Source: Naegleria gruberi
Taxonomy: Eukaryota
Strand: one strand, 5' to 3'
Assembly (NCBI GenBank): GCA_000004985.1
Contig: GG738879.1
DNA: 64,000 bases
Shown here: positions 442-64,000 of the stretch, one piece after another
How positions within the stretch are numbered: the stretch's first letter is position 1
Layout: the number at the start of each line of letters is the position of its first letter
The notes under the pieces: model-generated
Databases searched by the model: none
Told to the model about the DNA's origin: nothing
What the model saw: only the letters and a program-made list of their open reading frames with translations
Program-made: the position numbers and the translations under genes

Positions 442-1036
442 ATGCTCCAAGAAGATGGTTTTGATATATCAGATGAAAGTTATGATATTACCTGGAATAA
501 CATTCCTATAATTACTGACCTATCTTTAGATAATATCTTTCTTAATTACTCTGCCACAGAATTACATATTCCAATGATTAGATGTCCAAAATGGATATCA
601 GCTTGGGTTAAAATTAATTCACCAAAACAAAAAGCAATACTTTTAGAAGCAATGAAAGGAAAAGATAATAGTAATACTATATTTTCTTCAGAATTAACTA
701 AATGGGTTAATTCATATTTTCCAGAAAACCAATTAGAAGAGATTAAACAGAGTTCATTATATGATAATGCTACTACTAGAAAAGAAATTAATAAGGTTAC
801 TAAATATTTGAAAAAACAATATTGTTTTAATAAGATGACAGAAACAATTGTTGACGAAGAATTAGCAAGAATGAATATTCAATTAATTAAGAAAGGCAAT
901 GCTTGGACATGGGAACAAATTTTACAAGAAGATGAAGAAGAAGATTATCAACCTCAAACAAAGAAGAAAAAGACTGTTGACGATTATTCCTCTATTAATT
1001 GGCAAGAATTACATCCTCAATTTATTAAAATTGAAG
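442..1036 (+). CDS. Subtelomeric ORF, 5' portion, truncated by an assembly gap (hypothetical protein)
   Basis: ATG at 442, open for 198 codons until the N run begins at 1037. Bases 421-753 recur identically at 3361-3693. Confidence 0.5.
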
Positions 1037-2896: not shown

Positions 2897-3296
2897 ACCA
2901 AACCCAAACCCAAACCCAAACCCAAACCCAAACCCAAACCCAAACCCAAACCCAAACCCAAACCCAAACCCAAACCCAAACCCGAACCCAAACCCAAACC
3001 CAAACCCAAACCCAAACCCAAACCCAAACCCAAACCCAAACCCAAACCCAAACCCAAACCCAAACCCAAACCCAAACCCAAACCCAAACCCAAACCCAAA
3101 CCCAAACCCAAACCCAAACCCAAACCCAAACCCAAACCCAAACCCAAACCCAAACCCAAACCCAAACCCAAACCCAAACCCAAACCCAAACCCAAACCCA
3201 AACCCAAACCCAAACCCAAACCCAAACCCAAACCCAAACCCAAACCCAAACCCAAACCCAAACCCAAACCCAAACCCAAACCCAAACCCAAACCCA
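2897..3296. repeat. Second (internal) telomeric (CCCAAA)n tract in the same orientation as the terminal one
   Basis: About 66 hexamer units, one CCCGAA variant, immediately after the N gap. It is followed by 64 bp of unique sequence and then the same subtelomeric block as at 421. Confidence 0.9.
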
Positions 3297-3381
3297 TAGA
3301 GATTTATCAGAAGGTTATTCTTTCATTTCTTCATTAGCTGAACCTGGAGGATGGAGTTATAGTTCTCAAATTACTCAATCT

Positions 3382-3693
3382 ATGCTCCAAGAAGATGGTT
3401 TTGATATATCAGATGAAAGTTATGATATTACCTGGAATAACATTCCTATAATTACTGACCTATCTTTAGATAATATCTTTCTTAATTACTCTGCCACAGA
3501 ATTACATATTCCAATGATTAGATGTCCAAAATGGATATCAGCTTGGGTTAAAATTAATTCACCAAAACAAAAAGCAATACTTTTAGAAGCAATGAAAGGA
3601 AAAGATAATAGTAATACTATATTTTCTTCAGAATTAACTAAATGGGTTAATTCATATTTTCCAGAAAACCAATTAGAAGAGATTAAACAGAGT
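3382..3693 (+). CDS. Second copy of the subtelomeric ORF, 5' portion, truncated by a 50-N gap
   Basis: Identical to 442-753 (offset 2940). ATG at 3382. Confidence 0.5.
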
Positions 3694-3743
3694 NNNNNNN
3701 NNNNNNNNNNNNNNNNNNNNNNNNNNNNNNNNNNNNNNNNNNN
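3694..3743. other. Assembly gap (50 N)
   Basis: n run. Confidence 0.99.
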
Positions 3744-4514
3744 TGCGCGCTTAAATGGTCCTATCAAGGTTCTCAAGAATGATAAAATCAAAATTGACCT
3801 CAGTGGTCACAAAACTGATTTCTTCCTTATTGAAAAGCCAATTACTATTGATAAGAATACAAAGAATCCAAGTCTTTGCCCAATAACCCTAATAAAAGAA
3901 AAAACCTAATTGGAGCCATCACAGAAGGACTTAGAAAAGGTGTTTCTACTTCAGATCTCATGGTTGGTGCAAGACATAAGAAAACCAACAGTTTATTTCC
4001 TTATCTACGATCTGAGGGTCTTGCTAGCAAGAATTTCACAGACACCTTATTTTCTCTGGACGAACCCATTGGTTTATCAACGATTGTTTTATTGTTTCTT
4101 TTGGAGAAATATGTAGAGTTGCGAGGAAGAATTAAAATAGAGAACTTTAATGGATTGGAGTTTTTACCGATTTTTTCCTGCAATGCAGGTTTTTTATAGG
4201 GGAGTTGTTCTACTTCAATCTCGATTTTGTAAACAACTATATTAACTCGGGACAATGCTAAATAAAGTACAATGACCCAAAAAGCAGCATTTCTGAGCAA
4301 CATACCATTTGGATGAAGAATATGTTGAGTGAGCTTTTACCTCAACTTATATTTTATTAAGTTTACAATGAAAACAAGTCCATTCTTCACTTCGATCAGA
4401 ATTAGACACAATTTTGGGCCAATATTGAGAGAACAGTTTTTCCAATTTCATGGTCTTATGACAAGATTAAAAGAGGAATTACTATTATTTGGTCCTTGAA
4501 TTGATAGAAAAGCT

Positions 4515-10390: not shown

Positions 10391-11818
10391 TTACTTGACT
10401 TTAACTCTCATAGCTTCCTTTCTTGCTTGTTTTTCAAATACCATTGTTTGTTTGAATCTGTGATGAGTATCTAGCATGAGAATGCAAATTTCAGCCCCAA
10501 CATCATCAAAGAGTGAGTCGATCAAATGTTCATTTTGACCTGTTGCAAATAAATCCAAATGATTCTTAACCTTGTCGGACATGTGTTTGCTAAGGTTAAC
10601 TGATTTGTCGCCTCTTACATCGAGATAATCAGTGTAAATTTCAAAAGCAATTTCATACTTTTTCTTTTCAATATCGTACAAGTCCTTTTCATGGTATTTC
10701 TTCTTCTTCTTTTTATCATTGTCACTGTTTTCACTTGATTCACTATCCAATAAATATTCTTGAATTTCAAAACTCTTCTCACATAACAATTTGTAATCGG
10801 AAATCTTTTCAAGAATTTGGAAATTTTCAAGACTCATTTCGGTTTTACAAAACTTTCTAAAGAGTTCTCTTAGGTTTGGATTGTCCATGGTATCCATCAA
10901 CAAAAATGCTCTTACTTGATTCAACTTTCTAGTGTTAGAAGCATCCTTCTTCACTGAGGCAATAAAGGAAGATATAATAACTGGAATAACCATAAAGAGT
11001 GACATACAGATAACAGCAAGAGAAATGGACAAGACAATTGTTGATACATTTTGACTATTCTTCTTCATAGCAGCAACATAGTCAACCATTATTTGAAATT
11101 CTGTCCCATAAGAGTCCAAGTAAAGATGATATTGATCTGAATTGAGTAATTCCATTGCTTGAGAATAGTTTCCTTGTTTTGAAAGTGCGATAGCCGTTTG
11201 CTCGTAAGTAATTGCTTTTGTTGTATCCAATTGAGCTGATGTCTTTCCATGGAGGGCAGCTTCTCTGACAGATTCTGGAACCAGTGCCTTGAATCTGGCT
11301 GAACTATTACTGAATTTGAGTAAATAATCCACATAGAGAGTTCCATACTCTTTAGTTAAGGTCAAATTGTTACCAGAAAAAACTGCTGCACGTGCTGATG
11401 AAATGCTATATTGTCTATAGACTGTGGTGTCAGTGTCTAGATTGTCCCACAACTCGTTAAACTCTGTCTGAAGAACAAATGAAGCAATAATAAGAGATGC
11501 CAAAATCATGAAGGCACTCAAATTGATGACCAAAGAAGCAACGCTGAATAATCTGATCTTGGAAATGTGTAAAGTACCAATACATGTATCAATTTTAAAA
11601 AGAATGTCAGACTCTTTGCTTTTAACAGATGATGAATGTGGGGTCTTGATAGAGGTAGTTACTGATTTGCTTGTATTTGCATCATCCAACTTGTATTGCA
11701 CAGTGGTTGACATTCGTGGAGAGAGGGGAGGGCTTGTGGTACTGCTTCCAACATTCTCTAAATTGATTTCGTGATGTGAAGAACTGCTTGGTGAGTGAAT
11801 GGTTGTCGATATGTGCAT
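10391..11818 (-). CDS. Receptor-like RGS protein
   Basis: C-terminus LRELFRKFCKTEMSLENFQILEKISDYKLLCEKSFEIQEYL...YEIAFEIYTDYLDVRGDKSVNL is an RGS domain. Topology is Ser/Thr-rich N-terminus, TM (SVASLVINLSAFMILASLIIASFVL), about 150 aa extracellular helical region, second TM (VSTIVLSISLAVICMSLFMVIPVII), then RGS. First in-frame ATG is at 11818; the track ORF starts at a TTG at 11899. Confidence 0.8.
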   Translation of the reverse strand: MHISTTIHSPSSSSHHEINLENVGSSTTSPPLSPRMSTTVQYKLDDANTSKSVTTSIKTPHSSSVKSKESDILFKIDTCIGTLHISKIRLFSVASLVINLSAFMILASLIIASFVLQTEFNELWDNLDTDTTVYRQYSISSARAAVFSGNNLTLTKEYGTLYVDYLLKFSNSSARFKALVPESVREAALHGKTSAQLDTTKAITYEQTAIALSKQGNYSQAMELLNSDQYHLYLDSYGTEFQIMVDYVAAMKKNSQNVSTIVLSISLAVICMSLFMVIPVIISSFIASVKKDASNTRKLNQVRAFLLMDTMDNPNLRELFRKFCKTEMSLENFQILEKISDYKLLCEKSFEIQEYLLDSESSENSDNDKKKKKKYHEKDLYDIEKKKYEIAFEIYTDYLDVRGDKSVNLSKHMSDKVKNHLDLFATGQNEHLIDSLFDDVGAEICILMLDTHHRFKQTMVFEKQARKEAMRVKVK

Positions 11819-12142
11819 ATCGTCTGAATTGTTTTTTTTTGATGGTTTGAATTGTCCACTCTCATTTGCTCTTTTAAATTGATGTGCTGACCTGGACAAC
11901 CCTTTTAAAGGAAAGTTATAAAGAAAAGCTCCTCTAATTTGTAATTTAAAATGAGAATAGGAAGGAGGATCCTCCTATTGTACATCCTTTTTAATGTCGT
12001 TTCTGGATGTAAAATATTGCAAATAGCAACTGGTGATAGAAAAAAGTTAGCACTTTCATGTAAAACTTCAAAGCTCGATTGACTCTTTGAGAAATGTGTT
12101 AGCAGCAAGTGCTCATATGTCTAGTGTTTTGTAATCAAATCG

Positions 12143-19212: not shown

Positions 19213-21759
19213 TTATTTTTTCTTCTTTTGTTGTTTGAAAGTAACTTTTGGTGTTCGTTTCTTGGTTTGATCTTTAGGAACAAAATCTTCCTCCTCATCG
19301 TCATCACTCAGTGGAATGGCATCATCAAAAGAGCTACCTAGTTTCATGTTAGTGAGGTTGATTCGTTTTGGTTGTTGCTTGGCTTCCATTTTCGTTACTT
19401 TTAAAGCAGAGCTGGTACTAACAGCTTGGGCAGTACTGGTAGATTCAGCCTTTGTCACTTTCTTTTCCTTACTTCTTTCCACTTCGAATTTAAGCGATTT
19501 ATTCCACTCAGTAGGAAAAGTTTCTGTCAAAGCTGAAAGAGGACGACGATAAACATTCTTGTTTCCCCTCAAATGAGAAATAAATCTTGATACTGATACG
19601 TTTGAATTTTCTCCTCCTCTTAATCGAGATTCTGCATGAGTCAAACATAGACCCGATTGGGCTCTAGTGCAAGCTACAAAGAGTAATCTTCTTTCTTCCT
19701 CAATTTCTGCAGGTTTTTCTGCCTTGTAGAAAGGCAATGTACCTTCTTCAACACCACAAACAAATACAATTCCAAATTCCAATCCTTTAGAGGAGTGAAT
19801 GGTTGCAATAGTTGCCTTGTCATTCGAATCGGTTTCTCCTTCATTAAAGTTGTCTGGAACTAATGAAATATTGTGAAGGAACTCTGTCAAGGTACCTTCA
19901 GGATTTTTAACTTCATACTCTGCACAAATGTTGAGCAATTCCATAACGTTTTCATATCTTGTTTCTGCTGATGATTTCTCATAAGATTCTAGATAGGAAT
20001 AGTATTGAATCTTTTCAGTAATGGCAAGAAATATTTCTCTTGGTGATGAATCTAGCTTTTTAATTCCCTCAATGATTCCAATAAATTCTTTAAATCCCTT
20101 CTTGGCTTGAATACCTTTTATCTTTTTCTTATCCTGAATGACTTGTCTAATTATCTCATAACAGGAAACATTATTAGCAAGGGCTTCTTTCTTGATTGTT
20201 TTGATAGTTTGTTCTCCAATTGATCTCTTTGGAATGTTGATGCATCTTTCAAAGGCAAGATTATCATTGACATTATCAACCATACGGGCGTAGGCAATAA
20301 TATCCTTAACTTCCATACGATCGTAGAATTTGAAACATCCCAACACTTTATAATCAATACCGTGTACACCAAATGAGGTTTCAAAGGATCTTGAAGCAGC
20401 ATTGGTTCTTATCAAGACTGCAAAATCTTTAAAGCTTAACTTTCCTTCACTCTTTGAAATCAAGGAGAGTATTTCTTTGCTAACAAATTCTGCCTCCATT
20501 TCAGAAGATTCTAATTCCATAATACTAATTGGTAGTCCAGTATTGTTCGCTGTTGTTAATTTTTGATTTCTCAATCTAGATGTATTGCTTTCAATGATTT
20601 CATCACTTATAGATAAAATATTCTTTGTAGATCTATAATTTTGGTGTAAAAGTACATGTTTCATATTTTGGAAATCGTCTGATATTTTTCTCATGAGAGA
20701 ACAATCACTATATCTCCAAGAATAAATATTTTGATCAACATCTCCAACTACATAAATATTCTTGTGTTTGGATGATAGGAATTTTGCAATCTTGTACTGT
20801 AACTTGTTGGTGTCTTGGAATTCATCGACCAATAGGGCTTTGCATTGATCTCCATAGATTGTCAAAACATCTGAATTTCTTTCAAACAATTGAACTACTG
20901 AAAGGAGCAAGTCATCAAAATCTAGTGCATTATTTTCATGTAAATGTCTTTCATATTCAATGAACACTTGAGCTATGGCTTCTTTAATCTTTTTAGGATC
21001 TGCTATATTATTTCTGTATGAGCTTACATAATTTTTCGTGATTGGATTCTTTCTGAGTTCCTCCCTGACTTCATCTTCATGTTGTGAAGCATTCAATTCT
21101 CTATTCTTTGCTCCACTAATAACATGCATTACTTGAAGTGGTGCCAACACCTTGGTAATATTTGTCTTTCCAGATCTAAATTCAGTAATAATTGAATTAT
21201 TAGAATTCTTTAAAATATTTGTAATAACCTCTTGTTGATCATTGGCATCCAGAATTGTAAAACTATTGGTCAAATTAGATCTCACTCGATTTGCATATTT
21301 CCTCAAAATCTTGGCACAAATCGAATGAAAAGTTCCCAAATAACAATAATCCTTCTCTTCAAACTTTTTAGTTTGTGGATATCCTTTCACAAGTGCATCC
21401 ACTCTACTTTTCATTTCATTTGCAGCCTTGTTTGTAAAGGTCATTGCATAAATATTAAACGGTTGAATATTTGCCATAATTGTTAAATAGGCTATTCTAT
21501 ATGTAATTGTCTATTAAAATAGAAAATAATAAAAAACAAATTATTAAATTATTGGGTCATCATGAATCCTAATAATTTTACTTACCTTTGTCTTTCCACT
21601 TCCGGGACCAGAATAAACACAAACAGGATGCAAATGACTAGCTGTAACAGCCTCAAATTGTTCCGGATTTAAAAGTGTTTTAATATTCTCCACAAAATCA
21701 ACCGAAGAGTTTGATAAGGTTGAAAATTGTGAAGATTCCCCCTTTGGATGTTGAAGCAT
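19213..21759 (-). CDS. UvrD/PcrA/Srs2-family DNA helicase, 2 exons
   Basis: Exon 1 is 21586..21759, ending ...NPEQFEAVT..SGPGSGKTK. A 75-nt intron spans 21511..21585 (GTAAGT...TTTTAATAG). Exon 2 is 19213..21510, beginning TITYRIAYLTIMANIQPFNIYAMTFTNKAANEM, which is colinear with UvrD GSGKT-RVLVHRIAWLM...AVTFTNKAA. A K-rich C-terminal tail follows. Confidence 0.85.
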
Positions 21760-33952: not shown

Positions 33953-35158
33953 CTATTCGAAACTTTTATTTAATTTTACCAATTTAATTTTCAATGCAAG
34001 TAAAAAGCCAATGATCATGATAATGACTAAACAACCTAACGCAGCAATAGCCAATCCATGTGAAATCCTAAACTCGACTATTGGAGCATGAAGATCTTCT
34101 TCAGAGAGGAAACTAACAACTTTCCATTCTCCATTCGAAACAACATTCACATAGAAAGTTTCGCCACTTTCCAGTTCAACCTTTTCCTTATCCAATTGTT
34201 CAAAATATGCACCCTTAAAACGGACAAGTTTCATAATTTCGGCAACTTTAGGTTCGGCACTTTCTTCCAAGGTCTTTCTTTCAGCTCCATATTCTAAAGT
34301 TGAGTTATAATCAAATGAAATATCAAGTTTAGAAGATGATGCAATAATATATCCATCTTTCTCTGTAATGACATAAACAAAAGAGTTGCTTTCAACTTCT
34401 AATTGAAGGAAATCATTCAAATCTGCCAAATCTACATTTCCACATTCAGTAAATGCCTTGAATTTGTAATCCTGAAAGAGAGGACTCACAAGAGAGAGGT
34501 AATAGGCACCAGAAATGTCATAAACTGGTCCGACCCATGTTTCTTCTGATGATTTGTAGGCAATTTTCCATTGTAAAGCTTCATTAGCATTTGCTAGATC
34601 AATTGCATTGAAATCCAAATTCTTCTCATCTCCATTAATATACTCAGTGTTTGATCTTCCATTAATGATATATCCCAAATAGAATTGATCATCACTTGGA
34701 CAGACAGAAAAATAGGAATTCTCTTCCAAAAGCCATGCATAGTCTATTCCTCCATGAATTACTGAAACTCTTAACAGCCATTACCAATTCTTGAACAATT
34801 GCATTGTAATTAGCTTGTCCAGTTCCGTTCACTTTATAGCCAATCTCAAGTTTAAATTCTTGATTGCCAATTTTGGAGCATCAACATAATATTGAAATAC
34901 TTTACCAGATATATCGTTATCTGGAGATATCAAGTTATCAGGAGGAGTGTACAATACACTCGAGGCAATAAGGAATACAAAACCAATCAAGGCAAAGAAC
35001 ATCATGAGGAATAACAAGAAGAAGAGGCATGTTTTCGGGTGGTGGGTTTTCTCACCACTCTGAGCCATCTTTTCCATCATCATGTTAGTGGTAGTGATGG
35101 TATTGATGGTAATTTCATCTTCATTGATTGGAGATGTTGTTGTTGTTGTGTTATCCAT
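33953..35158 (-). CDS. Two-TM protein with about 230-aa extracellular domain and minimal cytoplasmic tails; probably two exons
   Basis: The upstream ORF 34829..35158 (true ATG at 35158; N-terminal TM LFFLLFLMMFFALIGFVFLIASSVL) and the downstream ORF 33953..34729 (C-terminal TM LAIAALGCLVIIMIIGFLLAL) are same-strand and adjacent. The downstream ORF has no ATG (track M is TTG). A candidate intron about 145 nt (GTAAAG...TTTCAG) would join ..PDNDIS to VIHGGIDYAWLLEENSYF... The join is inferred. Confidence 0.35.
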
Positions 35159-47797: not shown

Positions 47798-49992
47798 ATG
47801 GAACGAAATGCTCCCACCCACTTGACCAAAATAAATGATCTTGATGAACGTACTTTGAGAAAATTGTTGGTTAAAGCCACAAAGATTAAATCCAATCCAT
47901 CAATCTATTCTCACAGAATGGAAGATAAGGTTTGTCATCTTTCTTAATCAAAATTTTAACCAATAATCCACAGTCACTGTTAATGTTATTTGAAAAACCG
48001 TCACTTCGTACACGTCTTTCATTCGAAACAGCAATGACATCATTTGGTGGAAATGCCATCTATTATAGTGCCGATGAAGGACCGTTCGGAAAGAAGGAAA
48101 ATGTAAAGGATACTGCCATGTGTGCAGCTCAATATGTTGATGCATTTGTGTTGAGATTAAAGTCTAGAGAAAGTTTGTTGGAATTTGTAAAATATTCAAA
48201 AGTTCCTGTTATAAATGCCTTAGATGATTGGGCTCATCCTTGTCAAATATTGGCTGACCTGTTTACCATTGCAGAATTGAAATTAAATCCAAAACCACTC
48301 CACGAAAATCATCTCAACTTTGATAGACTGAAAATGGCTTACTATGGTGATTGTAGAAATAATGTCACTTATGATTTGATGAGAGCTGCTGCCATGATGA
48401 ATTTCAAACTCGTTCTCTCTTGCCCTGATAATGATGACTATAAACCAGTCCAAGAAGTTTGGGATGAAATCAAGAGAATCAATGAGAAGAGTGTAGAATG
48501 GATTGAAAATCCACTTGAAGCTTCTAAGGGATGTGATGTCATCTATACAGATTCATGGATGTCCTACCACATTCCTGAAAGTATGCTTCAAACCAGAGAA
48601 CAAGCATTGAAAAACTATCAAGTTAACATGCCAATATTGAAAAATGCAAAGAGTGATGTTATTTTCATGCATTGCCTTCCTGCAAAACGTTCTGAAGAAG
48701 TTACAGATGAAGTGATGGACTCTGTACATTCAGTTATCTATCATCAAGCATGGAATAGACAATGGGCTCAACAAGCACTCCTCCTCTATGTCATCTATGG
48801 ACCCAGTATCTTTTCAGAACACGAATATGAATCCGAGCTCTTATCAGAGGAAAAGTACTTTGCTATGGCTCCAAAACATCTTGGAACGATGCACTCCATT
48901 AGTAAGAAGAAGCACGAGTCTGTAAATAAGGGTGAAAAGAAATATCTGAAACATGGAAACAAGGAGAGAATACTTATAAGCTTTGGAGGAAATGCTCTTC
49001 AAAGTGATTCCACAAAGGAGGTAACCTATGAAGATTTACATTCCAACATTGATAAGAATTGTTCTGCACTTGCCAAATTTCTCCAAAATTGCAAGCAATC
49101 CAACATTTGCATTACACATGGAAATGGTCCTCAAGTTGGTTTCATTCACAAGGAATTGAATCATGAATCCCAAATGCCACTCGATGTTTGCGGAGCCATG
49201 TCTCAATCATTCATTGGTTATCAATTCCAACAATCCCTGATGAATAATATGCACCAACAAGACACGAAAGGAAATGTCCATGTTCGTTCTGTTACCACAC
49301 TCATCACACAAACTCTGGTGGATCAAAATGACAAGGCTTTCCAACATCCTAACAAGCCTGTTGGTAAATTCCTCTCTCCTGAAGAGTATGAATCATCAAA
49401 GAAGGACAAACAAATGATGACTTTCCACAAGTTTGATGAAGGCTACAGAAGAGTTGTTCCTTCTCCAACACCTATTGATATCATTGAATTGGACACTATC
49501 AAAACACTCTTCAATGAAGGACACTTGGTTATTTGTAATGGAGGTGGAGGTATCCCTGTTGTTAAAAGCCGAGATGAAGTTGGTGGTGATGAGAAAGCAA
49601 TGATTGGTAAAAAGCAAGCACAAAGAAAGAACCACCTGATGGGCATAGAAGCAGTCATTGACAAGGATAGATCCAGTTCCCTGCTAGCACAAAAGCTTAC
49701 TGTCGATTACTTTATCATTCTCACCAAAGTGGATCATGTCTACTTGAATTACTCTTCAAAAAAGGAGGAGAAGAAGCCTATTACTTCAATGGATGTTGAA
49801 ACTGCTCGACAATACATTACGGAAGGATGCTTTGAAGAAGGTACCATGCTACCAAAGATTGAATCAGCCACTGAATTTGTTACCAAGACTGGAAAACCTG
49901 CTCTCATCACAAGCTTGGACAATTTCATCAGAGAAACTTCCAACAATGAAATCAAACTACGTCATATTGAAGGTACTTGGATTGTTCCATAA
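47798..49992 (+). CDS. Bifunctional ornithine carbamoyltransferase - carbamate kinase fusion protein, 2 exons, about 716 aa
   Basis: Exon 1 is 47798..47929 (MERNAPTHLTKINDLDERTLRKLLVKATKIKSNPSIYSHRMEDK). A 44-nt intron spans 47930..47973 (GTTTGT..CCACAG). Exon 2 is 47974..49992. OTC motifs: SLRTR, HPCQ, DSWMS, HCLP. About 50-aa linker. Carbamate-kinase motifs: ILISFGGNAL, HGNGPQVG, GGGGIPV, VIDKDRSSSLLA. One uninterrupted reading frame. Confidence 0.85.
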
Positions 49993-55215: not shown

Positions 55216-57114
55216 ATGGTTTTATCCGTTAGCAACAAGGTTATTCTCGACAATTTCGAAAGAACCTCTCCACTATCTTGGACATTTAGTAATGGAGCAG
55301 AGTTTCCTGGTGCTGTGGGATCTCTTTCTTTGGCTCCTAATCAAGGATATGATGGCTCAACAGGTCTTAAATTATCATTCAATTTGACAGCTGGTAATTA
55401 TGTTGCTGCAAGTTATCACTTGCCACAGACACAAACTTTCACAATTTTGGGGTTCAAAGCGTTGGCACCTGTCAATAATTTGTTCAGTGTGAGAATTTCT
55501 GATCAGACTGGACAAGTTTTTCAATACAGAGCATTGAGGTTATTTGAACAATATGAAAGAGAATGGGCAGATATCATGGTAAATATCAATACATCACCAA
55601 CTTCCTCATGGGGAGGTGCTGCTGATAGAGTTATTCATTTCCCAATTAAGGCAATTAGTATCTTGACTGAAATTGCTGAGAAGGGAACTAGTCAAGATGT
55701 TGGTTACGTTATCATTGATGATGTTTTTGTTTCTAATCAATCAGTTATTGATTTGGATGTGACAAATTTTGTCAAAAGTCCATTCGTAGGTCAAAATGAA
55801 GATGGAATTGACATGCTATCAAGAATGGGTGTCAATATTCACTTTACAAGTGATGACAAAGGATTAGATGCTGTCAAAGAAGGTGGTTTCTCGTGGATTA
55901 GAATGGATTTGTTCTGGTCAACAGTTGAAACAACCAAGCAAGTTTACAATTTCTCTTCTTATGACACCTTATTGACTGCGTTGAAATTGAGAGGATTGAA
56001 AGCATTATTCATTCTGACCTATTCCAATACTCTCTACACTGGAAGTTCCTCTACTCCACCAACTACAGATATAGCCATCGAAGCTTTTGCTAATTATAGT
56101 AGAGCAGCTGCTATACATTACGCTAATGAGAATGTTATTTTCGAGGTTTACAATGAGGCAGATCGTCATGGATTCACTCCAACTACTTATGCTGCATTAT
56201 CAAAAGCTGCACTAGCTGCCATTAGAGAGGGAAATCCGAATGCTCAAGTTTCTACAACTGGTGTTGCTGGTTTTTCGTATGGTTTTGTGAGAGGTTTCAC
56301 ATCTGAAGGTGGTGCTGCCTCAAAGAATGGTTCTCAATTGTTTTCTGGAATAGGATTGCATCCTTATGGAGTTGGTGGTCCTAAATCACCTTTTGGAAGA
56401 TTCCCTGGTTTGACTAGAAAGTTCAGATCAATTATTAATGATAATATCAATGCCACTCTTCAAGGACACGCATCTACATTGAAAAGTGCTCAAACATCTT
56501 TGATTTCTACTGTGCCACCTGTTTGGGATACCGAATGGGGTCTCTCAGCAACTGATTTCGACTCCAATTCGAATGGATTGGACGAAACCGCATTGAGACT
56601 TCATGCTAATAATGTAGTAGGAAGATTACTCTCCTCATGCGCAGTTGGTTTCCCAATTTTCATTTATTACGATTTGAGAAATGATGGAGTTATACCAACA
56701 AATAGAGAACACAATTTCGGTTTGCTTTTCAATAATTATACTGACAAGCCAGCCATGAAAGCTGTCAAGCAATTGAGTTCAATGGTAAGAAATAGATTAT
56801 TTGATGGATTTATTCAAATTGAACACCCTTCTGTAACTGCCATGAGGTTTAAAAGTTCAAACGATTCAGTTGTTATCTTGTTGCCAACTGAAAGTGGAGC
56901 TTCAGTTATTGTTAAGGCAAATAATGCCAGTTCAGTAGTGGATATTTTTGGCAGAAATGTAACTGTTTCAAAAGATAATACGTTTATGGTGAAGGAAACT
57001 GAAGGATTGGTCTATGTAACTTTTGTGACGCCTAAAGAAACACCAACCGTATGTCAACCAACAGTTCAAACATCAAACAGCACAAATATTTCATCACCTG
57101 AGAAGGTAATTTGA
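55216..57114 (+). CDS. Glycoside hydrolase family 5-like enzyme with N-terminal beta-rich domain
   Basis: ..IHYANENVIFEVYNEADRHG.. contains the NE acid/base motif. ..VWDTEWGLS.. contains the TEWG nucleophile motif. No obvious signal peptide at the annotated ATG (55216). Confidence 0.6.
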   Translation: MVLSVSNKVILDNFERTSPLSWTFSNGAEFPGAVGSLSLAPNQGYDGSTGLKLSFNLTAGNYVAASYHLPQTQTFTILGFKALAPVNNLFSVRISDQTGQVFQYRALRLFEQYEREWADIMVNINTSPTSSWGGAADRVIHFPIKAISILTEIAEKGTSQDVGYVIIDDVFVSNQSVIDLDVTNFVKSPFVGQNEDGIDMLSRMGVNIHFTSDDKGLDAVKEGGFSWIRMDLFWSTVETTKQVYNFSSYDTLLTALKLRGLKALFILTYSNTLYTGSSSTPPTTDIAIEAFANYSRAAAIHYANENVIFEVYNEADRHGFTPTTYAALSKAALAAIREGNPNAQVSTTGVAGFSYGFVRGFTSEGGAASKNGSQLFSGIGLHPYGVGGPKSPFGRFPGLTRKFRSIINDNINATLQGHASTLKSAQTSLISTVPPVWDTEWGLSATDFDSNSNGLDETALRLHANNVVGRLLSSCAVGFPIFIYYDLRNDGVIPTNREHNFGLLFNNYTDKPAMKAVKQLSSMVRNRLFDGFIQIEHPSVTAMRFKSSNDSVVILLPTESGASVIVKANNASSVVDIFGRNVTVSKDNTFMVKETEGLVYVTFVTPKETPTVCQPTVQTSNSTNISSPEKVI

Positions 57115-57313: not shown

Positions 57314-60069
57314 CTATTTAGTGTCCAATCGATCTTCAAAAGCCCATGAGCTTCGCATACTAACATCGTCCACCATTTCTCTGAGTTTTTCCAATCTCAT
57401 ATTCGCCACGAAATCAGTCGGATCTCTGCTCACAACCTTTCCAAATAACTCAATCGCCTTCACCACATCTTCACTTTTAAGATTATTCATAGTTGAGCTC
57501 ATGTTCATGGAATCCACCACCCCAAAAGTGTGTTTCTGTCCATCAATTGTAAGCTTATCTGGAACGCATTCACCATGAGAGTAACTTCCAAACATTATCT
57601 CGATTGCATCTTCAAAGTTGGTCTTGTTTTTGGCTTTCAATTCGTGCGAGTTATTCGAAACTGTTGAAGGTGTTCTTGTGAGAATTTCAAATACCCAACT
57701 TGCTTGTTGTCTTCCAACAACTGCTAAGCGGCCTATTTTTCTTTGATTCCTCTTTGGAAGAAGTGGAGATGTTTCAATTACTTCCTTCGTAACGAGAATG
57801 TCAACTCTGTAATGTTTAGTCAAAGATTCCAAACGAGCTGCCAAATTGACAGTATCTCCAATAATGGTTGGATCAACTCTTTGATCTTCACCAATCAATC
57901 CAACTGCACATTTACCTCTTGCAATTCCAATTCCAACTCTAACTGTTGGATATTTCTTACTCTTATTGAATTCTAATAATCTTCTTTGTATTTCCATTGC
58001 TGCCAAAACAGATTGACCAGGAGTTAAAAACAATGCCAAAATACCATCACCCAAATACTTGTCAATATATCCACCATGTTCTCTCACAACTGGTCCAACC
58101 AATGACAGATAATTATTCAAAAATTCAAAAGTCTCATCTGGTGTCATCTTTTCACAAATACTTGTATAACCTCTAATGTCAGCAAACAACACATCCAATT
58201 CCATTTCAAAGTAATCTCCGTGCGTAAGGTCCATTACACTCTCCTTCTGAACAATCGACATGAATTCCTTTGGAACAAATTTGTGAACTGTCTCATTGTG
58301 CAATCTTAACAAGTCCTGAATGGTCCTCGAAAAGATTAACGACATAATTGATGAAAGGAAAATTCCCATAATTCCACCCACTGTATATCCTATCAATTCC
58401 TTAATAGCAAGCCCCTCTGATTCATTCTGATCCAACAAAATATCATCCCTAATCATATTCTCAATAGTTTTCAATTCATCGATTTTTTGTGTAATATTCC
58501 AGAACCAATTTTGAGCTGTAAAAATTGTCTTGGCATAGGTCAAATTGAAAGGAGAGGCCAATATGTATGATTCCATCATGTTTGTAACGGTCGCATTATT
58601 CACACTCAATGAAAGTTGCTCAAAATATTTGAAAGATCCAACATTTCTAGATTTGGCATCAATGATTGTGAACATGGTATCAAATCTTGATCTCAAATAC
58701 AAGTAACTGACATAGAAATCATTGGTAAAGGCACCAGCAGCTAATCCATTACTCACAGTAGCTCTCTTCTGACCCAAACTTTCCTTCATGACCATTAGGA
58801 GTGAATAAATATTCGATTTGATAAGAAAATCTGGATCTCTACCTAAACTTGTCGCCACATTTACAATATCAATCATATTCTTAATGATGGTAGTATAGAA
58901 ATCGAGAGCTACCTTCGCCACTGGAAATTTCAATGTTGAAATATTGTAACGATGAGCAGAGAGTATATGAAACGATGCATCAATCATATCGAGAGTTGGT
59001 TCAACTTTTTGTTTGGCAATTGTTTCGTCTTTTGCATAGGTAAAATAATCAATAATCCCCTTTTTTGTCGCATTCCAATTCAGTAATTGTAAATCTGTTG
59101 CATTTCGTTGTAAATCAAGCTCAGTAGTAAATGAGGTACCTTTCGAACCTAAATATAAAGAAGAAGAACCTCTTTCTTTTTGAATTTCATGAATAATATC
59201 CGAAATACCAGTTGTGAATATGGTAAGAAGAGTGTTGGCATCAGATTCTTTCACTCTCTTTCATCAAATTCAGTTTCGAATAATTACAATAAGAAACTTA
59301 CCAAAACTGAATAATTAATTAAAATTCCTTCAAATACTATCATACAAGCTAAAGAAAAGATAAAAATCAGAAGTAATTTGATAGAAAGTGGAATCTTTGC
59401 CAATATTTTTGATAAAGTCCACTTTCTTGCTTCCTTTTTCGAGACAACACTATACGAAATGTTAGAAGAAATACTGGAAGAAACTCCCATCATATTCTTT
59501 TCATATGAAGACCTAGACCCTGTATCCATTGTTCCTTCCTCAAGTGTTGTCAAATAATCTCCCTTCATATCATTTTCCTCAGCTTGTTTCGAATAAGTAC
59601 TTAGTGAACTAACTGATTTCTCCTTTTGCAATAAACTAATTTCCTTAGAACTTCTCAATGAATTCATTGTTGAACCTTGTTTTAGAAGAAAGTTGGTGTT
59701 GAGTGTTTTTTGAGTTCGAACCGAAACTAAACTTGGTTTACTCGCACTAGAACTCATGGCACCTAGATTAAGAGGAGTAATTTGATTTCGTTTAGGAGGA
59801 TTACTTTCAGGTCGAGAAACATGATGCTGATGAAGAAATAAATCTTCTGACTTGTTAGAAACTTTAGACGAATCGCCTACTATTGTATTCCTATCGTGCT
59901 GTTCTTCGTTCATTATTGAGGAAAGTCTTTGATGTTGTATGGATGATGTTTCGTCTATTGAATTCGAAAGTAATTCATCAGTTGTAGCACGGTGATGGTG
60001 TTCATGCGGAGAAGATGAATTACTACTACTACCGGAAGAAGATGTATGTTGCTTATACTTGTCAGACAT
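57314..60069 (-). CDS. Receptor-type class III nucleotidyl cyclase (Lys/Asp specificity residues suggest adenylyl), 2 exons, about 903 aa
   Basis: Exon 1 is 59302..60069 (Ser/His-rich N-terminus then TM LLLIFIFSLACMIVFEGILI). A 44-nt intron spans 59258..59301 (GTAAGT..GAAAG). Exon 2 is 57314..59257: about 270-aa helical sensor region, second TM, then a cyclase homology domain (DVLFADIRGYTSICEKM..YIDKYLGDGILALF..RVDPTIIGDTVNLAARLES). The track ORF 57314..59254 starts at a GTG, not ATG. Confidence 0.85.
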
Positions 60070-60422
60070 GCTATAGTCAATTTTTCAAAGAACTCATGCA
60101 CAGCTGTTTCGAATGAAATGTTTTTTTAAGAGATACTTAAAGTATAGTTCTCTAAGATTCGGTTAATTGTTGGTGAAAACGTAAAAGAACTGAATCATAT
60201 TCTTAATGTTTTATGAGAGAGAAACTTCAACGAATCAACCCTTGGATAGAATAATCGAAACAGATATCTCCTTCGCTTCCTATACATAATAAAGGAAAGA
60301 ATTGTAATTTTTAGTAGTGACTACTACCGCTCTGCTCATCTTACGAATATTCAATCTAGAATTTCCCTCCAAAAAACATCACCCTCTCAAAACAAACCAC
60401 ACCAATTGACCATTCCAATCAT

Positions 60423-63026
60423 TTATTTAAAATCAAGTCGATCTTCAAATGACCACATTGTATTGGCACTCAAAATTTCTTCCAATTTTGTTATTCTCAT
60501 TTGAACTAAATAATCCTGCGAGTCAACTTCTTGAATTTGTTTCAGATAATCAAGTGCTTGAATTGGATTAAACAAATCCTTTTCATACATCATGGCAATG
60601 GATGCTTCGAATTTATCCTTATGTTTCTTCTTACTGTCAACTGAACCAAAAGATGGAGATTCTGTCAAAATTTCAAATATGGTGCATGATTGTTGTCTTC
60701 CAACAACTGCAATCTTTCCAATATTTCTGTATTTGGCATTGGATAAAAGTGGTGATGAATCAATTACATCTCTTGTTACCATAATGTCAACTCTGTAATG
60801 TTTAGTCAAAGATTCCAAACGAGCTGCCAAATTGACAGTATCTCCAATTATGGTTGGATCAACTCTTTGATCTTCACCAATCAATCCAACTGCACATTTT
60901 CCTCTTGCAATTCCAATTCCAACTCTAACTGTTGGATATTTCTTACTCTTATTGAATTCTAATAATCTTCTTTGTAATTCCATTGCTGCTAAAACAGATT
61001 GACCAGGAGTTAAAAACAATGCCAAAATACCATCACCCAAATACTTGTCAATATATCCACCATGTTCTCTCACAACTGGTCCAACCAATGACAAATAATT
61101 ATTCAAAAACTCAAACGTCTCATCTGGTGTCATCTTTTCACAAATACTCGTATAACCTCTAATGTCAGCAAACAACACATCCAATTCCATTTCAAAGTAA
61201 TCACCATGATTCAAATCCATGACGCTATCCTTTTGAACAATCGACATGAATTCCTTTGGAACAAACTTGTGAACTGTCTCATTGTGCAACCTTAACAAAT
61301 CTTGAATAGTCCTTGAAAAGATTACAGCCAAAATGATAGAAGCAATTACAACACTGAAACCACCAACACAATAACCCATAAGAGAATCTTTGGCCGATGA
61401 TTCAATACTTTGCGAGTTATTAAATATGCCATCTCTAATGTTATCTTCCACTACTTTTAATTCATCAATCTTGGTAGTCACATTCCAAAACCAATTCTCT
61501 GCAGAAAACACCGATTGGGCTTTTGTTAAATTGAATGGTGAAGACAACATGTATGATTCCATCATATCAACAACAGCGTTACTCTTTACATATCCAGTTA
61601 ATTGTTGATAGTATCCAAGACTATCCCTGTTCCTCGATTTGGCATCAATGACCATGTACATGGTATCATATCTTGACTTTAAATATAAAAAGTTTACATA
61701 GAGATCATTGGTGAAAGCACCAGCAGCCACAGCATTACTACCAACAGCTCTTCTCTGACCTAAACTTTCCTTCATGACCATCAAGAGTGTATAGATGTTG
61801 GTCACGACGAGGAATTTACGATCTTCAGCCAAAGCAGCCAATACAGACACCACATCAATCATATTCTTAATGCAATTTGTGAAAAAATCCAATGCAGGTT
61901 TGGCCACTGGAAATTGTAAATTTGAAATCTTTTCTCTGTGAGAAGGCAGGACATTCAAATAGATATTCTCAATAATTTGAATAACTGTATACGTCTGATT
62001 CCTTGTAATTTCATCTTGTTCTATCAGTAAATCGAAAAATTCTGCAATAGAAGCCCTAGTTTCATTCCATTTAGAGAGGGCAAGGTTTGTGGCATTCCTC
62101 TGTGTAGCCAATTCAACCACAAACTTTTTACCTTTACCACCAAGAAAGAGTGATGAAGATCCACGTTCCTTTTGCAGTTCGTGGATGATTTGGGCAATAT
62201 TGGTGGAGAAGGTCGTTAATTTCTGAATACTCTGTGCTTCAAGAACTCGCTATATAGAGTAAGGGCCAACACCATGTTATTGTTATTGTGGAAAATCAGA
62301 GTTGTAATGAAACATCAATAAGAAAAATTGACAAATACCCAATTAAGGGATGAAACATACCTTTGCAGAATCATTCACTAATATGGCTCCAAAAACCACA
62401 AGCGAAATGATTGATAAAATCACAATAAAGAAAAGTTTCACAGGAAGAGGAATCATGGCAACGAGTTTTGAAAAGCTTACTCTCTTCTTTCGTTGCTGGT
62501 TTCTACTGACGATAGAGTAAGAGACTACTGATGAGGATATCGATTTCTGCGTGATTGACGTTCTCATCTTTTCCATGTCATCAAATGGATCTGTCTTGGC
62601 AAGATTTTGAAGGTTATTATCAAAGTTTTTAGAACTGGTGATACTGGATAGGAGTGAGCTCTGCGTTTTAACTGCAACTGTCTTGGATTCCTTCTTTTGA
62701 GTAGAGTTGTTTTTATAGTGATGATTCGGTTTGGATGAATTCATGGGAGAAACCTTTGCCTTAGAAGAGAAGAATATTGAGGTACTTAAGGTATTTGTTG
62801 TATTCCTTGTTGATTCTTCTTGTTGTTGCTCTTCATCTTGTTGTTGTTCTTCTTCAATGGTTGTACTCTTTTGATACGAAGGAGCATTTCCTTCCTCACT
62901 ATATGGTTTCTGAACGGGTGAGGGATCCTCTTCCAGAGTAGTAGTCCCACTCACAGTGTATCTATTCTCTCTATGTGAGAGATCCTGATGATGTTCCTCA
63001 TGATGTTGATGCTGATGATTTGTCAT
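60423..63026 (-). CDS. Tandem paralogue of the receptor-type class III cyclase, 2 exons, about 830 aa
   Basis: Exon 1 is 62361..63026 (true ATG at 63026; the track start at 63059 is TTG), ending ..FGAILVNDSAK. A 111-nt intron spans 62250..62360 (GTATGT..TATATAG). Exon 2 is 60423..62249, beginning RVLEAQSIQKLTTFSTNIAQIIHELQKERGSSSLF. The intron position and phase are identical to the paralogue (both second exons begin RV..). The catalytic domain is about 90% identical to gene 1. Confidence 0.85.
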
Positions 63027-64000
63027 TTGGTGTGAATTTGTTTTTTTCTGTTGTACCAAGAGATAGATGCAAACACAGCAAAACGCTCATTCACACTCCT
63101 TGTGACTTGGAAATATAGTAAAATTCGCAATGAAGCTGTTGCACACTGTAAGAGAATATTCAAATCCGTTTTTTCTGCTTCCCAACCCTTAATAAGATAT
63201 TAAGATATAATTTTAGGTAGAAAACTCTAAAGGCCAATAATATAACCACCGAAATTTATAGTAATAACCTGATAGTGAACAATAAACGCGATAATTCTTC
63301 AAGTATTAATAGCTGTAATTGAATAGAGAGCTTTCATTAATTTGTTAAGTTGGTTCGTGGATTGGAAAAGGTAGTTTTTAAATTATCTGACCACAACCTC
63401 CGATAGTTTAGTTAAAACTTGGTAGATACCACATTGTATTCCCATTCATCCAGTTTGATGTTGTATCAAATGGCGATTCATGCAAGAATCGCTTTTTAAT
63501 TTTGAACTACTTCTCCCTGAATCAATAAAGCAGTTTTACAAAAGAATCCCATGTCTATTTCTATCTTGGTGACATTGTTCGATTTGCATCTCGGTAACAT
63601 TACCTTTCTAGTTGTGGCTATCTCTGATTCTATTAACAAACTTTCCAAGTCCATTACCTTAATGTAGATAGCATATTACTGACTATATTTGAAGTTTATC
63701 CGTCCTTCTTAATTATATTTCTAAGATTCTTTACTGTATTGAAAATGTACAATGAACCAGTTGATGATGCATTTGAATCAGTTCATTGACAAAATTGATT
63801 CGAATTGCATTGGGGAAATGTTGAACGTAAACTGTTAACCTTGTGAGTTGTTGCTTTCTGTTTGCACATTGTAAACAACAAACCAAAACCAGTTTTATCT
63901 GGAAAATGGAATTTTAAAAATCATAAAAAAAATGCCCCGAATTACCACAAGTGACAAAAAGCGACGATTGAACAACAAGCGATATGATGAGTTTAGTAAG

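What the first reader, a model, noticed from the sequence alone, without database searches (positions are those of the whole stretch)
57314..63026. Tandem pair of receptor-type class III cyclases with an uncharacterised two-TM extracellular sensor and a conserved intron
Two adjacent minus-strand paralogues share the architecture cytoplasmic low-complexity N-terminus, TM, about 270-aa all-helical sensor, TM, cyclase domain. Each is split by a single phase-0 intron (44 nt and 111 nt) at exactly the same position just after TM1; both second exons start RV. The substrate-specifying positions read K (YIDKYLGDG) and D (RVDPTIIGD), which suggests adenylyl and not guanylyl specificity. The sensor region is not one I can place in a named family (NIT/4HB-like at best). 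The ORF track alone would miscall both genes as two ORFs each, with false GTG/TTG starts.
Basis: partly seen in the sequence, partly recalled or inferred. Interest (0 to 1): 0.7.

Follow-up and report, generated by a model that had tools for sequence, protein, structure and literature searches.

The report
Naegleria tandem NIT-sensor adenylyl cyclase genes
These are two neighbouring, already annotated Naegleria gruberi genes for membrane receptors that join a well-known nitrate/nitrite-type (NIT) sensor outside the cell to a cAMP-making enzyme inside, so the "unknown sensor" is an ordinary named domain and the find is largely routine.

Summary
There are two minus-strand tandem paralogues, each with one phase-0 GT-AG intron (44 nt and 111 nt) at the same codon boundary just after TM1. 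Each has the layout Ser-rich N-terminus, TM1, about 270-aa helical ectodomain, TM2, class III cyclase.

The spliced products (903 and 830 aa) are identical to RefSeq XP_002675238.1 ("adenylate/guanylate cyclase") and XP_002675239.1 of Naegleria gruberi NEG-M. The gene models are therefore already public.

The "unplaceable" sensor is a textbook NIT domain:
- Pfam PF08376 matches at E about 1e-39.
- The AlphaFold model matches only NasR (4AKK), with TM-score 0.81-0.83.
- Both putative ligand-binding arginines are kept.

NIT-TM-cyclase receptors are known in animals as guanylyl cyclases, and NIT domains have been reported in eukaryotes.

The catalytic domain carries all six canonical residues. 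That gives the class IIIb Lys/Thr adenylyl cyclase signature.

New details found here:
- A gene-conversion tract keeps the linker and cyclase core about 97-100% identical between the tandem copies in N. gruberi, N. fowleri and N. lovaniensis, while the NIT sensors diverge to 43-56%.
- Intron positions are lineage-specific.

The ligand (nitrate, nitrite or an NO derivative) remains an inference. Interest is low.

The parts
57314..60069 (-). Gene A, NIT-domain receptor adenylyl cyclase, 903 aa (= XP_002675238.1 / EFC42494.1 / UniProt D2VL74)
59302..60069 (-). Gene A exon 1: Ser/His-rich cytosolic N-terminus plus TM1 (256 codons)
59320..59394 (-). Gene A TM1 (aa 226-250, IPLSIKLLLIFIFSLACMIVFEGIL). 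The IPLxxKL motif is conserved across the family.
59258..59301 (-). Gene A intron, 44 nt, phase 0, GTAAGT...AG
57314..59257 (-). Gene A exon 2 (647 codons plus stop)
58439..59200 (-). Gene A NIT sensor domain (aa 276-529). Arg285 lies in IQKERG and Arg421 in GQKRA.
58313..58396 (-). Gene A TM2 (about aa 544-571). In the model it is part of one continuous helix running from the last NIT helix into the cytosolic linker.
57656..58195 (-). Gene A class III (IIIb-type) cyclase catalytic domain (about aa 611-790). Key residues: D616, K656, D660, T720, N727, R731.
57317..57655 (-). Gene A C-terminal helical tail (aa 791-903), conserved in the family. It includes an insertion specific to gene A that is modelled with low confidence.
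60423..63026 (-). Gene B, paralogous NIT-domain receptor adenylyl cyclase, 830 aa (= XP_002675239.1 / EFC42495.1 / UniProt D2VL75)
62361..63026 (-). Gene B exon 1 (222 codons): low-complexity N-terminus plus TM1
62379..62453 (-). Gene B TM1 (aa 192-216)
62250..62360 (-). Gene B intron, 111 nt, phase 0, GTATGT...AG
60423..62249 (-). Gene B exon 2 (608 codons plus stop)
61428..62189 (-). Gene B NIT sensor domain (aa 243-496). Arg251 lies in LQKERG and Arg389 in GQRRA.
61299..61382 (-). Gene B TM2 (about aa 512-539)
60642..61181 (-). Gene B cyclase catalytic domain (about aa 579-758). Key residues: D584, K624, D628, T688, N695, R699.
57794..58333 (-). Gene-conversion tract, copy in gene A (linker plus cyclase core). 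It has 28 mismatches in 540 nt against gene B, and 10 in the 420-nt core. Flanking sequence shows about 40-50% mismatch.
60780..61319 (-). Gene-conversion tract, copy in gene B

Best explanation
The region holds two tandemly duplicated, already annotated Naegleria gruberi genes. Each encodes a two-pass membrane receptor made of these parts, in order:
- a disordered Ser-rich cytosolic N-terminus;
- TM1;
- an extracellular NIT domain (two four-helix bundles, NasR-like);
- TM2;
- a short helical linker with a cyclase-transducer-like FVPKEF segment;
- a class IIIb-type cyclase domain;
- a short helical tail.

Shown here: the gene structures, the domain identities, the NasR-like fold, the retention of all six catalytic residues on one chain, and the Lys/Thr specificity pair.

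Inferred:
- The proteins act as dimers, as class III cyclases must. These would be homodimers and possibly A/B heterodimers.
- A small nitrogen oxyanion (nitrate, nitrite or an NO-derived species) binds between the two NIT bundles at the conserved arginines.
- The change is relayed through the continuous helix formed by the last NIT helix, TM2 and the linker to the catalytic dimer, altering cAMP synthesis.

Gene conversion keeps the linker and catalytic module nearly identical between the two copies while the sensors diverge.
For: Identity to RefSeq models XP_002675238.1 and XP_002675239.1.

Pfam: NIT at E=1.4e-39 and 2.6e-40, full length; Guanylate_cyc at E=3e-15 and 8e-17.

NIT-only AF2 model: pLDDT 92.6, pTM 0.90. 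Its only significant PDB matches are NasR 4AKK chains, TMq 0.81-0.83, E about 1e-7. Sequence match to NasR: E=1e-4.

The arginines equivalent to NasR R50 and R176 (proposed nitrate pocket, PMC7496416) are kept in both copies. H, Q, E and R of the HxxQxER motif and the KE motif are invariant in the family alignment.

Cyclase fold hits: OaPAC, bPAC, CyaB and CyaC. In residue-level alignments the query Lys aligns with the Lys of CyaB and OaPAC (Glu in the guanylyl cyclase Cya2). The query Thr aligns with the Thr of CyaB and OaPAC (Gly in Cya2). The metal Asp pair, Asn and Arg are all present.

The model shows one continuous helix across the last NIT helix, TM2 and the linker.

N-glycosylation sequons are somewhat denser in the ectodomain, and four of them are shared by both copies.

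Full-length collinear homologues occur in N. fowleri, N. lovaniensis, Willaertia magna and uncultured eukaryote contigs.

Bacterial NIT domains PscN and Dd15070 bind nitrate and nitrite at micromolar Kd (table in PMC12358799). Platynereis NIT-GC1 needs its NIT domain to respond to an NO donor (bioRxiv 10.1101/2023.08.02.551600).
Against: No ligand or enzyme activity was, or could be, measured here.

The NIT domain of P. aeruginosa PA4520 binds neither nitrate nor nitrite, and NIT may be a superfamily with several ligands (PMC6381276).

The residue equivalent to NasR E175 is Lys (gene A) or Arg (gene B) rather than Glu.

Identity to NasR is only about 19%.

Nucleotide specificity is predicted from two residues only.

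Confidence: 0.8

Rival explanations
1. The architecture is as described, but the NIT ectodomain senses something other than nitrate or nitrite. Candidates are another small anion, a prey-derived metabolite, or NO itself. Alternatively it acts mainly as a dimerisation scaffold.
For: The PA4520 NIT domain binds neither nitrate nor nitrite, and its authors propose ligand-diverse subfamilies (PMC6381276). Animal NIT-GC1 responds to an NO donor and the true ligand is unresolved. The pocket residue equivalent to NasR E175 is replaced by Lys or Arg. The sensors of the two copies are only 56% identical, which is compatible with different ligands.
Against: Both arginines of the proposed nitrate pocket and the HxxQxER and KE motifs are conserved. 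Every NIT domain with a demonstrated ligand binds nitrate and/or nitrite (NasR; PscN and Dd15070 in PMC12358799).
Confidence: 0.35
2. The enzymes are guanylyl (or dual-specificity) cyclases, like the animal NIT-GCs.
For: All functionally described eukaryotic NIT-cyclases are GCs (PMC7400543). RefSeq leaves the name open as "adenylate/guanylate cyclase". The best sequence hit in the PDB is Cya2, a guanylyl cyclase.
Against: At the two specificity positions the query has Lys and Thr, as in the adenylyl cyclases CyaB, OaPAC and CyaC, whereas Cya2 has Glu and Gly. The closest folds are adenylyl cyclases.
Confidence: 0.1
3. One reading: the ectodomain is a new, unnamed sensor family, which makes this a novel receptor class.
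For: None after testing. Identity to the solved NIT structure is low (19%).
Against: Pfam NIT at E about 1e-39 covers positions 1-238 of the 239-position model. The NasR fold match has TM-score 0.81-0.83. The databases already carry PF08376 for the homologues.
Confidence: 0.02
4. One of the two copies is a decaying duplicate without function.
For: The N- and C-termini have diverged strongly (22-27% identity). The N. lovaniensis second copy shows an apparent frameshift in its NIT region.
Against: Both N. gruberi reading frames are intact over 830-903 codons in a 34% GC genome. All catalytic and NIT motif residues are kept in both. The NIT domains keep 56% identity, and a third, closer relative of gene B exists in an ENA contig.
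Confidence: 0.05

Closest known systems
Animal NIT-domain guanylyl cyclases (NIT-GCs; insects and sea urchin in Anantharaman et al. 2006, PMC1592074; Placozoa and others in Moroz et al. 2020, PMC7400543; Platynereis NIT-GC1 and NIT-GC2, bioRxiv 10.1101/2023.08.02.551600)
   Same: Same layout: an extracellular NIT domain between two TM helices, a helical linker and a single class III cyclase domain. The conserved arginine pair is present in the NIT domain. These genes often occur as expanded families.
   Different: The animal enzymes are guanylyl cyclases and are reported to belong to the receptor-GC (ANPR) group. The Naegleria catalytic domain has the Lys/Thr class IIIb adenylyl cyclase signature, and its nearest relatives are bacterial-type cyclases. 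The fusion is therefore probably independent. The Naegleria proteins also have a long low-complexity N-terminus and a helical C-terminal tail.
NasR of Klebsiella oxytoca (PDB 4AKK), the structural prototype of the NIT domain
   Same: Same fold of two four-helix bundles (TMq 0.81-0.83). The LQxERG and KExxGxxRA motifs carry the arginines equivalent to R50 and R176.
   Different: NasR is a soluble cytoplasmic NIT-ANTAR RNA-binding antiterminator. Here the NIT domain is extracytoplasmic and is coupled through a TM helix to a cyclase. Sequence identity is about 19%.
Bacterial NIT-domain chemoreceptors (PscN of Pectobacterium atrosepticum, Dd15070 of Dickeya dadantii) and other bacterial NIT transducers
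   Same: TM-NIT-TM topology with an extracytoplasmic sensor. The nearest non-eukaryotic sequence hits to the sensor are NIT-HAMP-MCP proteins (24-29% identity). PscN and Dd15070 have demonstrated nitrate and nitrite binding (PMC12358799).
   Different: Their output is a methyl-accepting chemotaxis domain reached through a HAMP domain, not a cyclase. PA4520 shows that not every NIT domain binds nitrate or nitrite (PMC6381276).
Class IIIb adenylyl cyclases (CyaC of Spirulina, CyaB of P. aeruginosa, bPAC/OaPAC, mammalian soluble AC)
   Same: Homodimer-type catalytic domain with both metal Asp residues, Lys and Thr specificity residues, and Asn and Arg transition-state residues on one chain. Best fold matches.
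   Different: The N-terminal sensors differ (GAF/PAS, MASE2, BLUF). None of the solved examples carries a NIT ectodomain.
Two-TM receptor adenylyl cyclases of other protists (Dictyostelium ACG with a CHASE sensor; trypanosome receptor ACs). This comparison is from general knowledge, prompted by a mention in PMC9928731.
   Same: Single-chain receptor cyclases with an extracellular sensor and one catalytic domain that must dimerise.
   Different: The sensor families differ (CHASE or periplasmic-binding-protein-like versus NIT). No CHASE or Cache match was found here.

Membership tests
NIT domain (Pfam PF08376) | Match to the family profile above the curated threshold, over the full domain length | tested here: met
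   137.3 and 139.7 bits against a cut-off of 24.9; profile positions 1-238 and 2-237 of 239
NIT domain (Pfam PF08376) | All-helical fold of two four-helix bundles, as in NasR (4AKK) | tested here: met
   AF2 model with pLDDT 92.6 and pTM 0.90. In Foldseek, 4AKK chains A and B are the only hits with E<0.001, with TMq 0.81-0.83 over 287-290 columns.
NIT domain (Pfam PF08376) | Conserved arginines of the proposed ligand pocket (NasR R50 in LQxERG; R176 in GQERA) | tested here: met
   Gene A has R285 and R421; gene B has R251 and R389. H, Q, E and R of the first motif are invariant in alignment A2. The position equivalent to NasR E175 is Lys or Arg here.
NIT domain (Pfam PF08376) | Binding of nitrate and/or nitrite | not testable with these tools
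   Needs ITC or thermal shift on the recombinant ectodomain. Precedents point both ways (PMC12358799 versus PMC6381276).
Class III nucleotidyl cyclase (PF00211) | Profile match and cyclase-homology-domain fold | tested here: met
   56.7 and 61.8 bits against a cut-off of 21.9. Foldseek hits to OaPAC, CyaB, CyaC and bPAC at E 1e-10 to 1e-12.
Class III nucleotidyl cyclase (PF00211) | Six canonical catalytic residues on one chain (two metal Asp, two specificity residues, Asn, Arg), as needed for an active homodimer | tested here: met
   Gene A: D616, D660, K656, T720, N727, R731. Gene B: D584, D628, K624, T688, N695, R699. Assigned from alignments to CyaB, OaPAC and Cya2.
Class IIIb adenylyl cyclases | Lys plus Thr (instead of Asp) at the substrate-specifying positions | tested here: met
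   The query Thr in RVDP-T-IIGD aligns with the Thr of CyaB (RMDYTIIG) and OaPAC (KRDYTILG), and with Gly of the guanylyl cyclase Cya2. The subclass definition is from established literature (Linder & Schultz classification) and is recalled, not read here.
Class IIIb adenylyl cyclases | ATP preference, and bicarbonate/CO2 responsiveness in many members | not testable with these tools
   An enzymatic assay is required.
Animal NIT-GC receptor family | TM-NIT-TM-helical linker-cyclase architecture | tested here: met
   The architecture is described in PMC1592074 and PMC7400543.
Animal NIT-GC receptor family | Guanylyl-cyclase-type catalytic domain belonging to the receptor-GC (ANPR) group | tested here: not met
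   The specificity pair is Lys/Thr. The nearest catalytic-domain relatives are bacterial-type class III cyclases (7TMR-DISM, HAMP and response-regulator cyclases), and the best folds are adenylyl cyclases. No formal phylogeny with animal sequences was run.
   Only NIT and Guanylate_cyc were reported at E<=0.1, plus a sub-threshold PIG-F hit in TM1 of gene B.
Spliceosomal intron | GT...AG borders, restoration of the reading frame, and continuity with homologues | tested here: met
   The spliced products are identical to the RefSeq proteins.
Spliceosomal intron | Removal seen in transcripts | not testable with these tools

The most novel reading that the evidence does not exclude
The two tandem receptors may work as a heterodimer, or a mix of homo- and heterodimers. 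Their TM2, linker and catalytic module would be kept interchangeable by recurrent gene conversion, while the two NIT sensors diverge to read different nitrogen oxyanions or NO-derived species. The conversion is seen independently in N. gruberi, N. fowleri and N. lovaniensis, with the same tract boundaries in N. fowleri and N. lovaniensis. This would be the first adenylyl-cyclase-type eukaryotic NIT receptor. It would link environmental nitrate or nitrite to cAMP in a free-living amoeboflagellate, for instance in the choice between feeding, encystment and flagellate transformation.
Probability: 0.15. Interest if true: 0.5.

Novelty: already known. Interest (0 to 1): 0.2.

Why it matters
The main value is as a correction. 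The sensor is not new, and the gene models, including both introns, have long been in RefSeq and UniProt, one of them already named as a cyclase.

Some modest value remains:
- No paper found in the searchable library discusses NIT-cyclases in Heterolobosea.
- These are adenylyl-type (class IIIb) rather than guanylyl-type enzymes as in animals. This suggests that NIT and cyclase modules were joined more than once.
- The conversion tract shared by three Naegleria species is a tidy example of concerted evolution limited to the output half of a receptor.

If nitrate or nitrite sensing were shown, it would give a handle on how a soil and freshwater amoeba, and its pathogenic relative N. fowleri, read nitrogen chemistry.

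Tried and rejected
1. A full-length protein search was swamped by the low-complexity N-terminus. It gave only 6 weak hits and was repeated with exon 2 only.

2. A NIT-only search with gene B returned nothing at E<=1e-8, although P0007 is 57% identical in that region. This is unexplained and probably a candidate-selection failure. The relation of the sensor to animal versus bacterial NIT domains could therefore not be resolved.

3. Foldseek with the whole exon-2 model listed only cyclase hits in the top 50. The NIT domain was re-modelled alone.

4. I first took the JGI "class 3 adenylate cyclase" hits (P0015-17, P0020) to be bacterial full-length homologues. The one contig inspected, that of P0017, carries Spt6, an SF3B3/CPSF_A-type protein, Rbx1 and Arf genes, so it is eukaryotic. 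No bacterial protein with full-length collinearity was found.

5. Orthology and synteny with the N. fowleri and N. lovaniensis tandem pairs was considered and rejected:
- The neighbours differ: a GH5-like gene here, versus Cactin and a HAD hydrolase there.
- NJ trees put gene A and gene B together, apart from the (Nfow1, Nlov1) and (Nfow2, Nlov2) groups.
- Intron positions differ.

6. [quoted passage not shown] I could not check whether these genes are named there.

7. Exact look-up of eight other window ORFs found none in the collection, presumably because the public models differ in start or splicing.

Full report
**What is in the sequence**

The window is eukaryotic. It opens with about 415 nt of (CCCAAA)n telomeric repeat, is about 34% GC and is packed with long ORFs.

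At 57314-63059 the minus strand carries four ORFs that pair up into two genes.

- Gene A: the 261-codon ORF 59284..60069 runs into GTAAGT at 59301. The downstream 646-codon ORF is preceded by AG at 59259-59258 and by an in-frame TGA two codons further up. Removing 59258-59301 (44 nt) joins the frames.
- Gene B: removing 62250-62360 (111 nt, GTATGT...AG) does the same.

The spliced products are 903 and 830 aa. Both introns are phase 0 and sit in the same alignment column, four to six residues after TM1 (SVL|RV and SAK|RV).

An exact-sequence look-up shows both spliced proteins are identical to RefSeq XP_002675238.1 ("adenylate/guanylate cyclase", EFC42494.1, UniProt D2VL74) and XP_002675239.1 ("predicted protein", NAEGRDRAFT_50382, D2VL75) of Naegleria gruberi NEG-M, on a 384-kb scaffold.

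A 261-aa ENA entry, the same length as the read-through exon-1 ORF, sits in the same 90% cluster as the 903-aa protein.

**What the sensor is**

Pfam places the region between the two TM helices in NIT (PF08376) at E=1.4e-39 (gene A, aa 276-529) and 2.6e-40 (gene B, aa 243-496), covering the whole 239-position model. The only other family is Guanylate_cyc.

- phmmer against PDB sequences finds NasR (4AKK) at E=1e-4.
- An AlphaFold2 model of the ectodomain alone is confident (pLDDT 92.6, pTM 0.90).
- In Foldseek against the PDB, the only significant hits are the two NasR chains, with TMq 0.81-0.83 over the full 290 residues.

The NasR residues proposed to form the nitrate pocket are R50 in LQxERG and E175/R176 in GQERA. 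The numbering follows PMC7496416; the crystallised chain is offset by 27. These correspond to:

- gene A: R285 in IQKERG and K420/R421 in GQKRA;
- gene B: R251 and R388/R389.

In the family alignment H, Q, E and R of the first motif and the KE of the second are invariant or nearly so. The sensor is thus an ordinary NIT domain, not an unplaced family.

**The catalytic half**

The full exon-2 model (pLDDT 83.6) shows one continuous helix from the last NIT helix through TM2 to ...NETVHKF. Then come a break at Pro, a short helix (PKEFMS) and a canonical cyclase fold. Its best structural matches are the adenylyl cyclases OaPAC, CyaB, bPAC and CyaC.

Residue-level alignments show:

- both metal aspartates (A: D616, D660);
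- the Asn and Arg pair (N727, R731);
- Lys656 aligned with the Lys of CyaB and OaPAC, and with Glu of the guanylyl cyclase Cya2.

The second specificity position is Thr720 in RVDP-T-IIGD. It aligns with Thr of CyaB and OaPAC and with Gly of Cya2.

Lys/Thr is the class IIIb adenylyl cyclase signature (established classification, recalled). The AC prediction therefore stands, on corrected grounds. All six residues lie on one chain in both copies, so homodimers with two active sites are possible.

**Topology**

Each protein has two hydrophobic segments. Basic residues precede TM1. N-glycosylation sequons are somewhat denser in the ectodomain, and four are shared by both copies. This fits an extracellular NIT domain and a cytosolic cyclase, but it is an inference.

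**Relatives**

An exhaustive profile-free search with exon 2 and a word-indexed search find full-length collinear homologues at 35-59% identity:

- N. lovaniensis C9374_011351 and C9374_011352;
- N. fowleri FDP41_005831 and its neighbour;
- Willaertia magna ABK040_006932;
- an ENA fragment (P0007);
- several JGI metagenome proteins.

The one JGI contig inspected, that of P0017, is eukaryotic (Spt6, an SF3B3/CPSF_A-type protein, Arf), and there the gene has no intron. Some uncultured relatives add an RGS domain (P0020, P0163, P0182).

The closest non-eukaryotic hits to the sensor are bacterial NIT-HAMP-MCP proteins at 24-29% identity. The closest to the cyclase domain are bacterial class III cyclases at about 40%.

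**Evolution of the pair**

Within N. gruberi, identity between the two copies varies sharply by region:

| Region | Identity |
|---|---|
| N-terminus | 22% |
| NIT domain | 56% |
| TM2 and linker | 68% |
| Cyclase domain | 88% |
| C-terminal tail | 27% |

Third-codon-position identity is 0.9-1.0 across aa 610-745, against 0.2-0.5 in most of the rest of the gene (up to 0.67 in the best-conserved NIT window). At DNA level there are 28 mismatches in 540 nt (10 in the 420-nt core), flanked by about 40-50% mismatch. This is a gene-conversion tract, not just purifying selection.

N. fowleri and N. lovaniensis also carry a head-to-tail pair. In each species the two copies share a stretch of about 130 codons, identical at the amino-acid level and at all but one third position. 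It runs from the start of TM2 to AIEIQ in the cyclase domain. The tract has the same boundaries in both species, but the species differ from each other inside it. Conversion has therefore recurred after speciation.

NJ trees of the NIT domain, the cyclase core and the tail all group gene A with gene B (plus P0007). They also group the N. fowleri and N. lovaniensis copies as (1,1) and (2,2).

Intron positions agree with this grouping. Both N. fowleri/N. lovaniensis paralogues have introns at LQ|xERG and KExxG|IKRA, and none after TM1. The N. gruberi genes have only the post-TM1 intron. The flanking genes also differ.

The duplications are thus either independent or have been fully homogenised within lineages. 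The "conserved intron" is conserved only between the two N. gruberi copies.

**Comparison with what is known**

- NIT was defined in bacteria (Shu et al. 2003, cited in several papers read here).
- NIT-TM-S-helix-cyclase receptors were reported in insects and sea urchins in 2006 (PMC1592074).
- They were later reported across many animal phyla as NIT-GCs (PMC7400543).
- Platynereis NIT-GC1 makes cGMP in response to an NO donor only if its NIT domain is present (bioRxiv 10.1101/2023.08.02.551600).
- NIT proteins are noted in picoalgae (PMC9481584).
- Bacterial NIT chemoreceptor domains PscN and Dd15070 bind nitrate and nitrite at 2-47 µM, but the PA4520 NIT domain binds neither (PMC6381276).

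I found no paper in the searchable library that discusses NIT-cyclases in Naegleria. The pangenome paper only counts at least 81 cyclases.

**Verdict**

These are already annotated genes belonging to a known kind of receptor (NIT-domain receptor cyclase), here with a class IIIb adenylyl-type catalytic domain.

The most likely mechanism is an inference: a nitrogen oxyanion binds at the arginine pocket of a dimeric extracellular NIT domain, and the signal passes along the continuous TM2 and linker helix to regulate cAMP synthesis. The architecture is shown. The specificity is predicted from two residues. The ligand is the weakest step.

The conversion tract and the lineage-specific introns are small additions. 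Interest is low.

Noticed in passing
window 1-415: The window starts with about 69 copies of CCCAAA (TTTGGG on the other strand), which looks like a telomere. The cyclase pair therefore lies only about 57-63 kb from a chromosome end.
   Followed up: partly
window 442-3909 (N run from 1037): Just inside the telomere there is a very AT-rich stretch (19-20% GC) with strong base skew. It contains a long ORF interrupted by an assembly gap of Ns. The first 198 aa have no Pfam match.
   Followed up: partly
window 10391-11899 (-): A 502-aa ORF with two hydrophobic segments flanking a predicted extracellular region of about 150 aa, followed by an RGS domain (E=2e-9). It is a receptor-like RGS protein. 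Uncultured relatives of the NIT-cyclases carry RGS domains too (P0020, P0163, P0182).
   Followed up: partly
window 33953-34729 (-): An ORF with a weak dCache_1-like match (E=6e-5, below Pfam's cut-off) followed by a TM segment. It may be part of another receptor gene.
   Followed up: no
window 47932-49992 (+): A single ORF that joins an ornithine/aspartate carbamoyltransferase (OTCace_N plus OTCace) to an amino-acid-kinase-family domain. This looks like a carbamoyltransferase-carbamate kinase fusion.
   Followed up: no
window 19213-21477 (-): A UvrD/REP-type helicase ORF (UvrD-helicase plus UvrD_C, E down to 2e-66).
   Followed up: no
L001 13780-14180 vs 11290-11690; L002 13810-14210 vs 11285-11685 (approximate): In N. 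lovaniensis and N. fowleri the two tandem NIT-cyclase genes share a tract of about 400 nt (TM2 to mid-cyclase) that is identical at the amino-acid level and at all but one third-codon position, with the same boundaries in both species. The species differ from each other inside the tract, so gene conversion has recurred.
   Followed up: yes
L001 12937-13506: The public N. lovaniensis model C9374_011352 (558 aa) skips most of the NIT domain with a 570-nt "intron". The skipped DNA encodes NIT sequence, but with an apparent frameshift near 13085. The cause could be an assembly error or a decaying copy.
   Followed up: partly
L002 11858-11985: The public N. fowleri model FDP41_005831 uses a distant acceptor. 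This deletes VNLSARLESLTKQYNAQILVTKQIID, including the catalytic Asn and Arg. An acceptor about 60 nt after the donor restores the conserved sequence, as in N. lovaniensis.
   Followed up: yes
window 55216-57114 (+): The convergent neighbour of gene A is a 632-aa ORF with a weak GH5 cellulase-like match. It does not correspond to the neighbours of the N. fowleri and N. lovaniensis pairs.
   Followed up: partly
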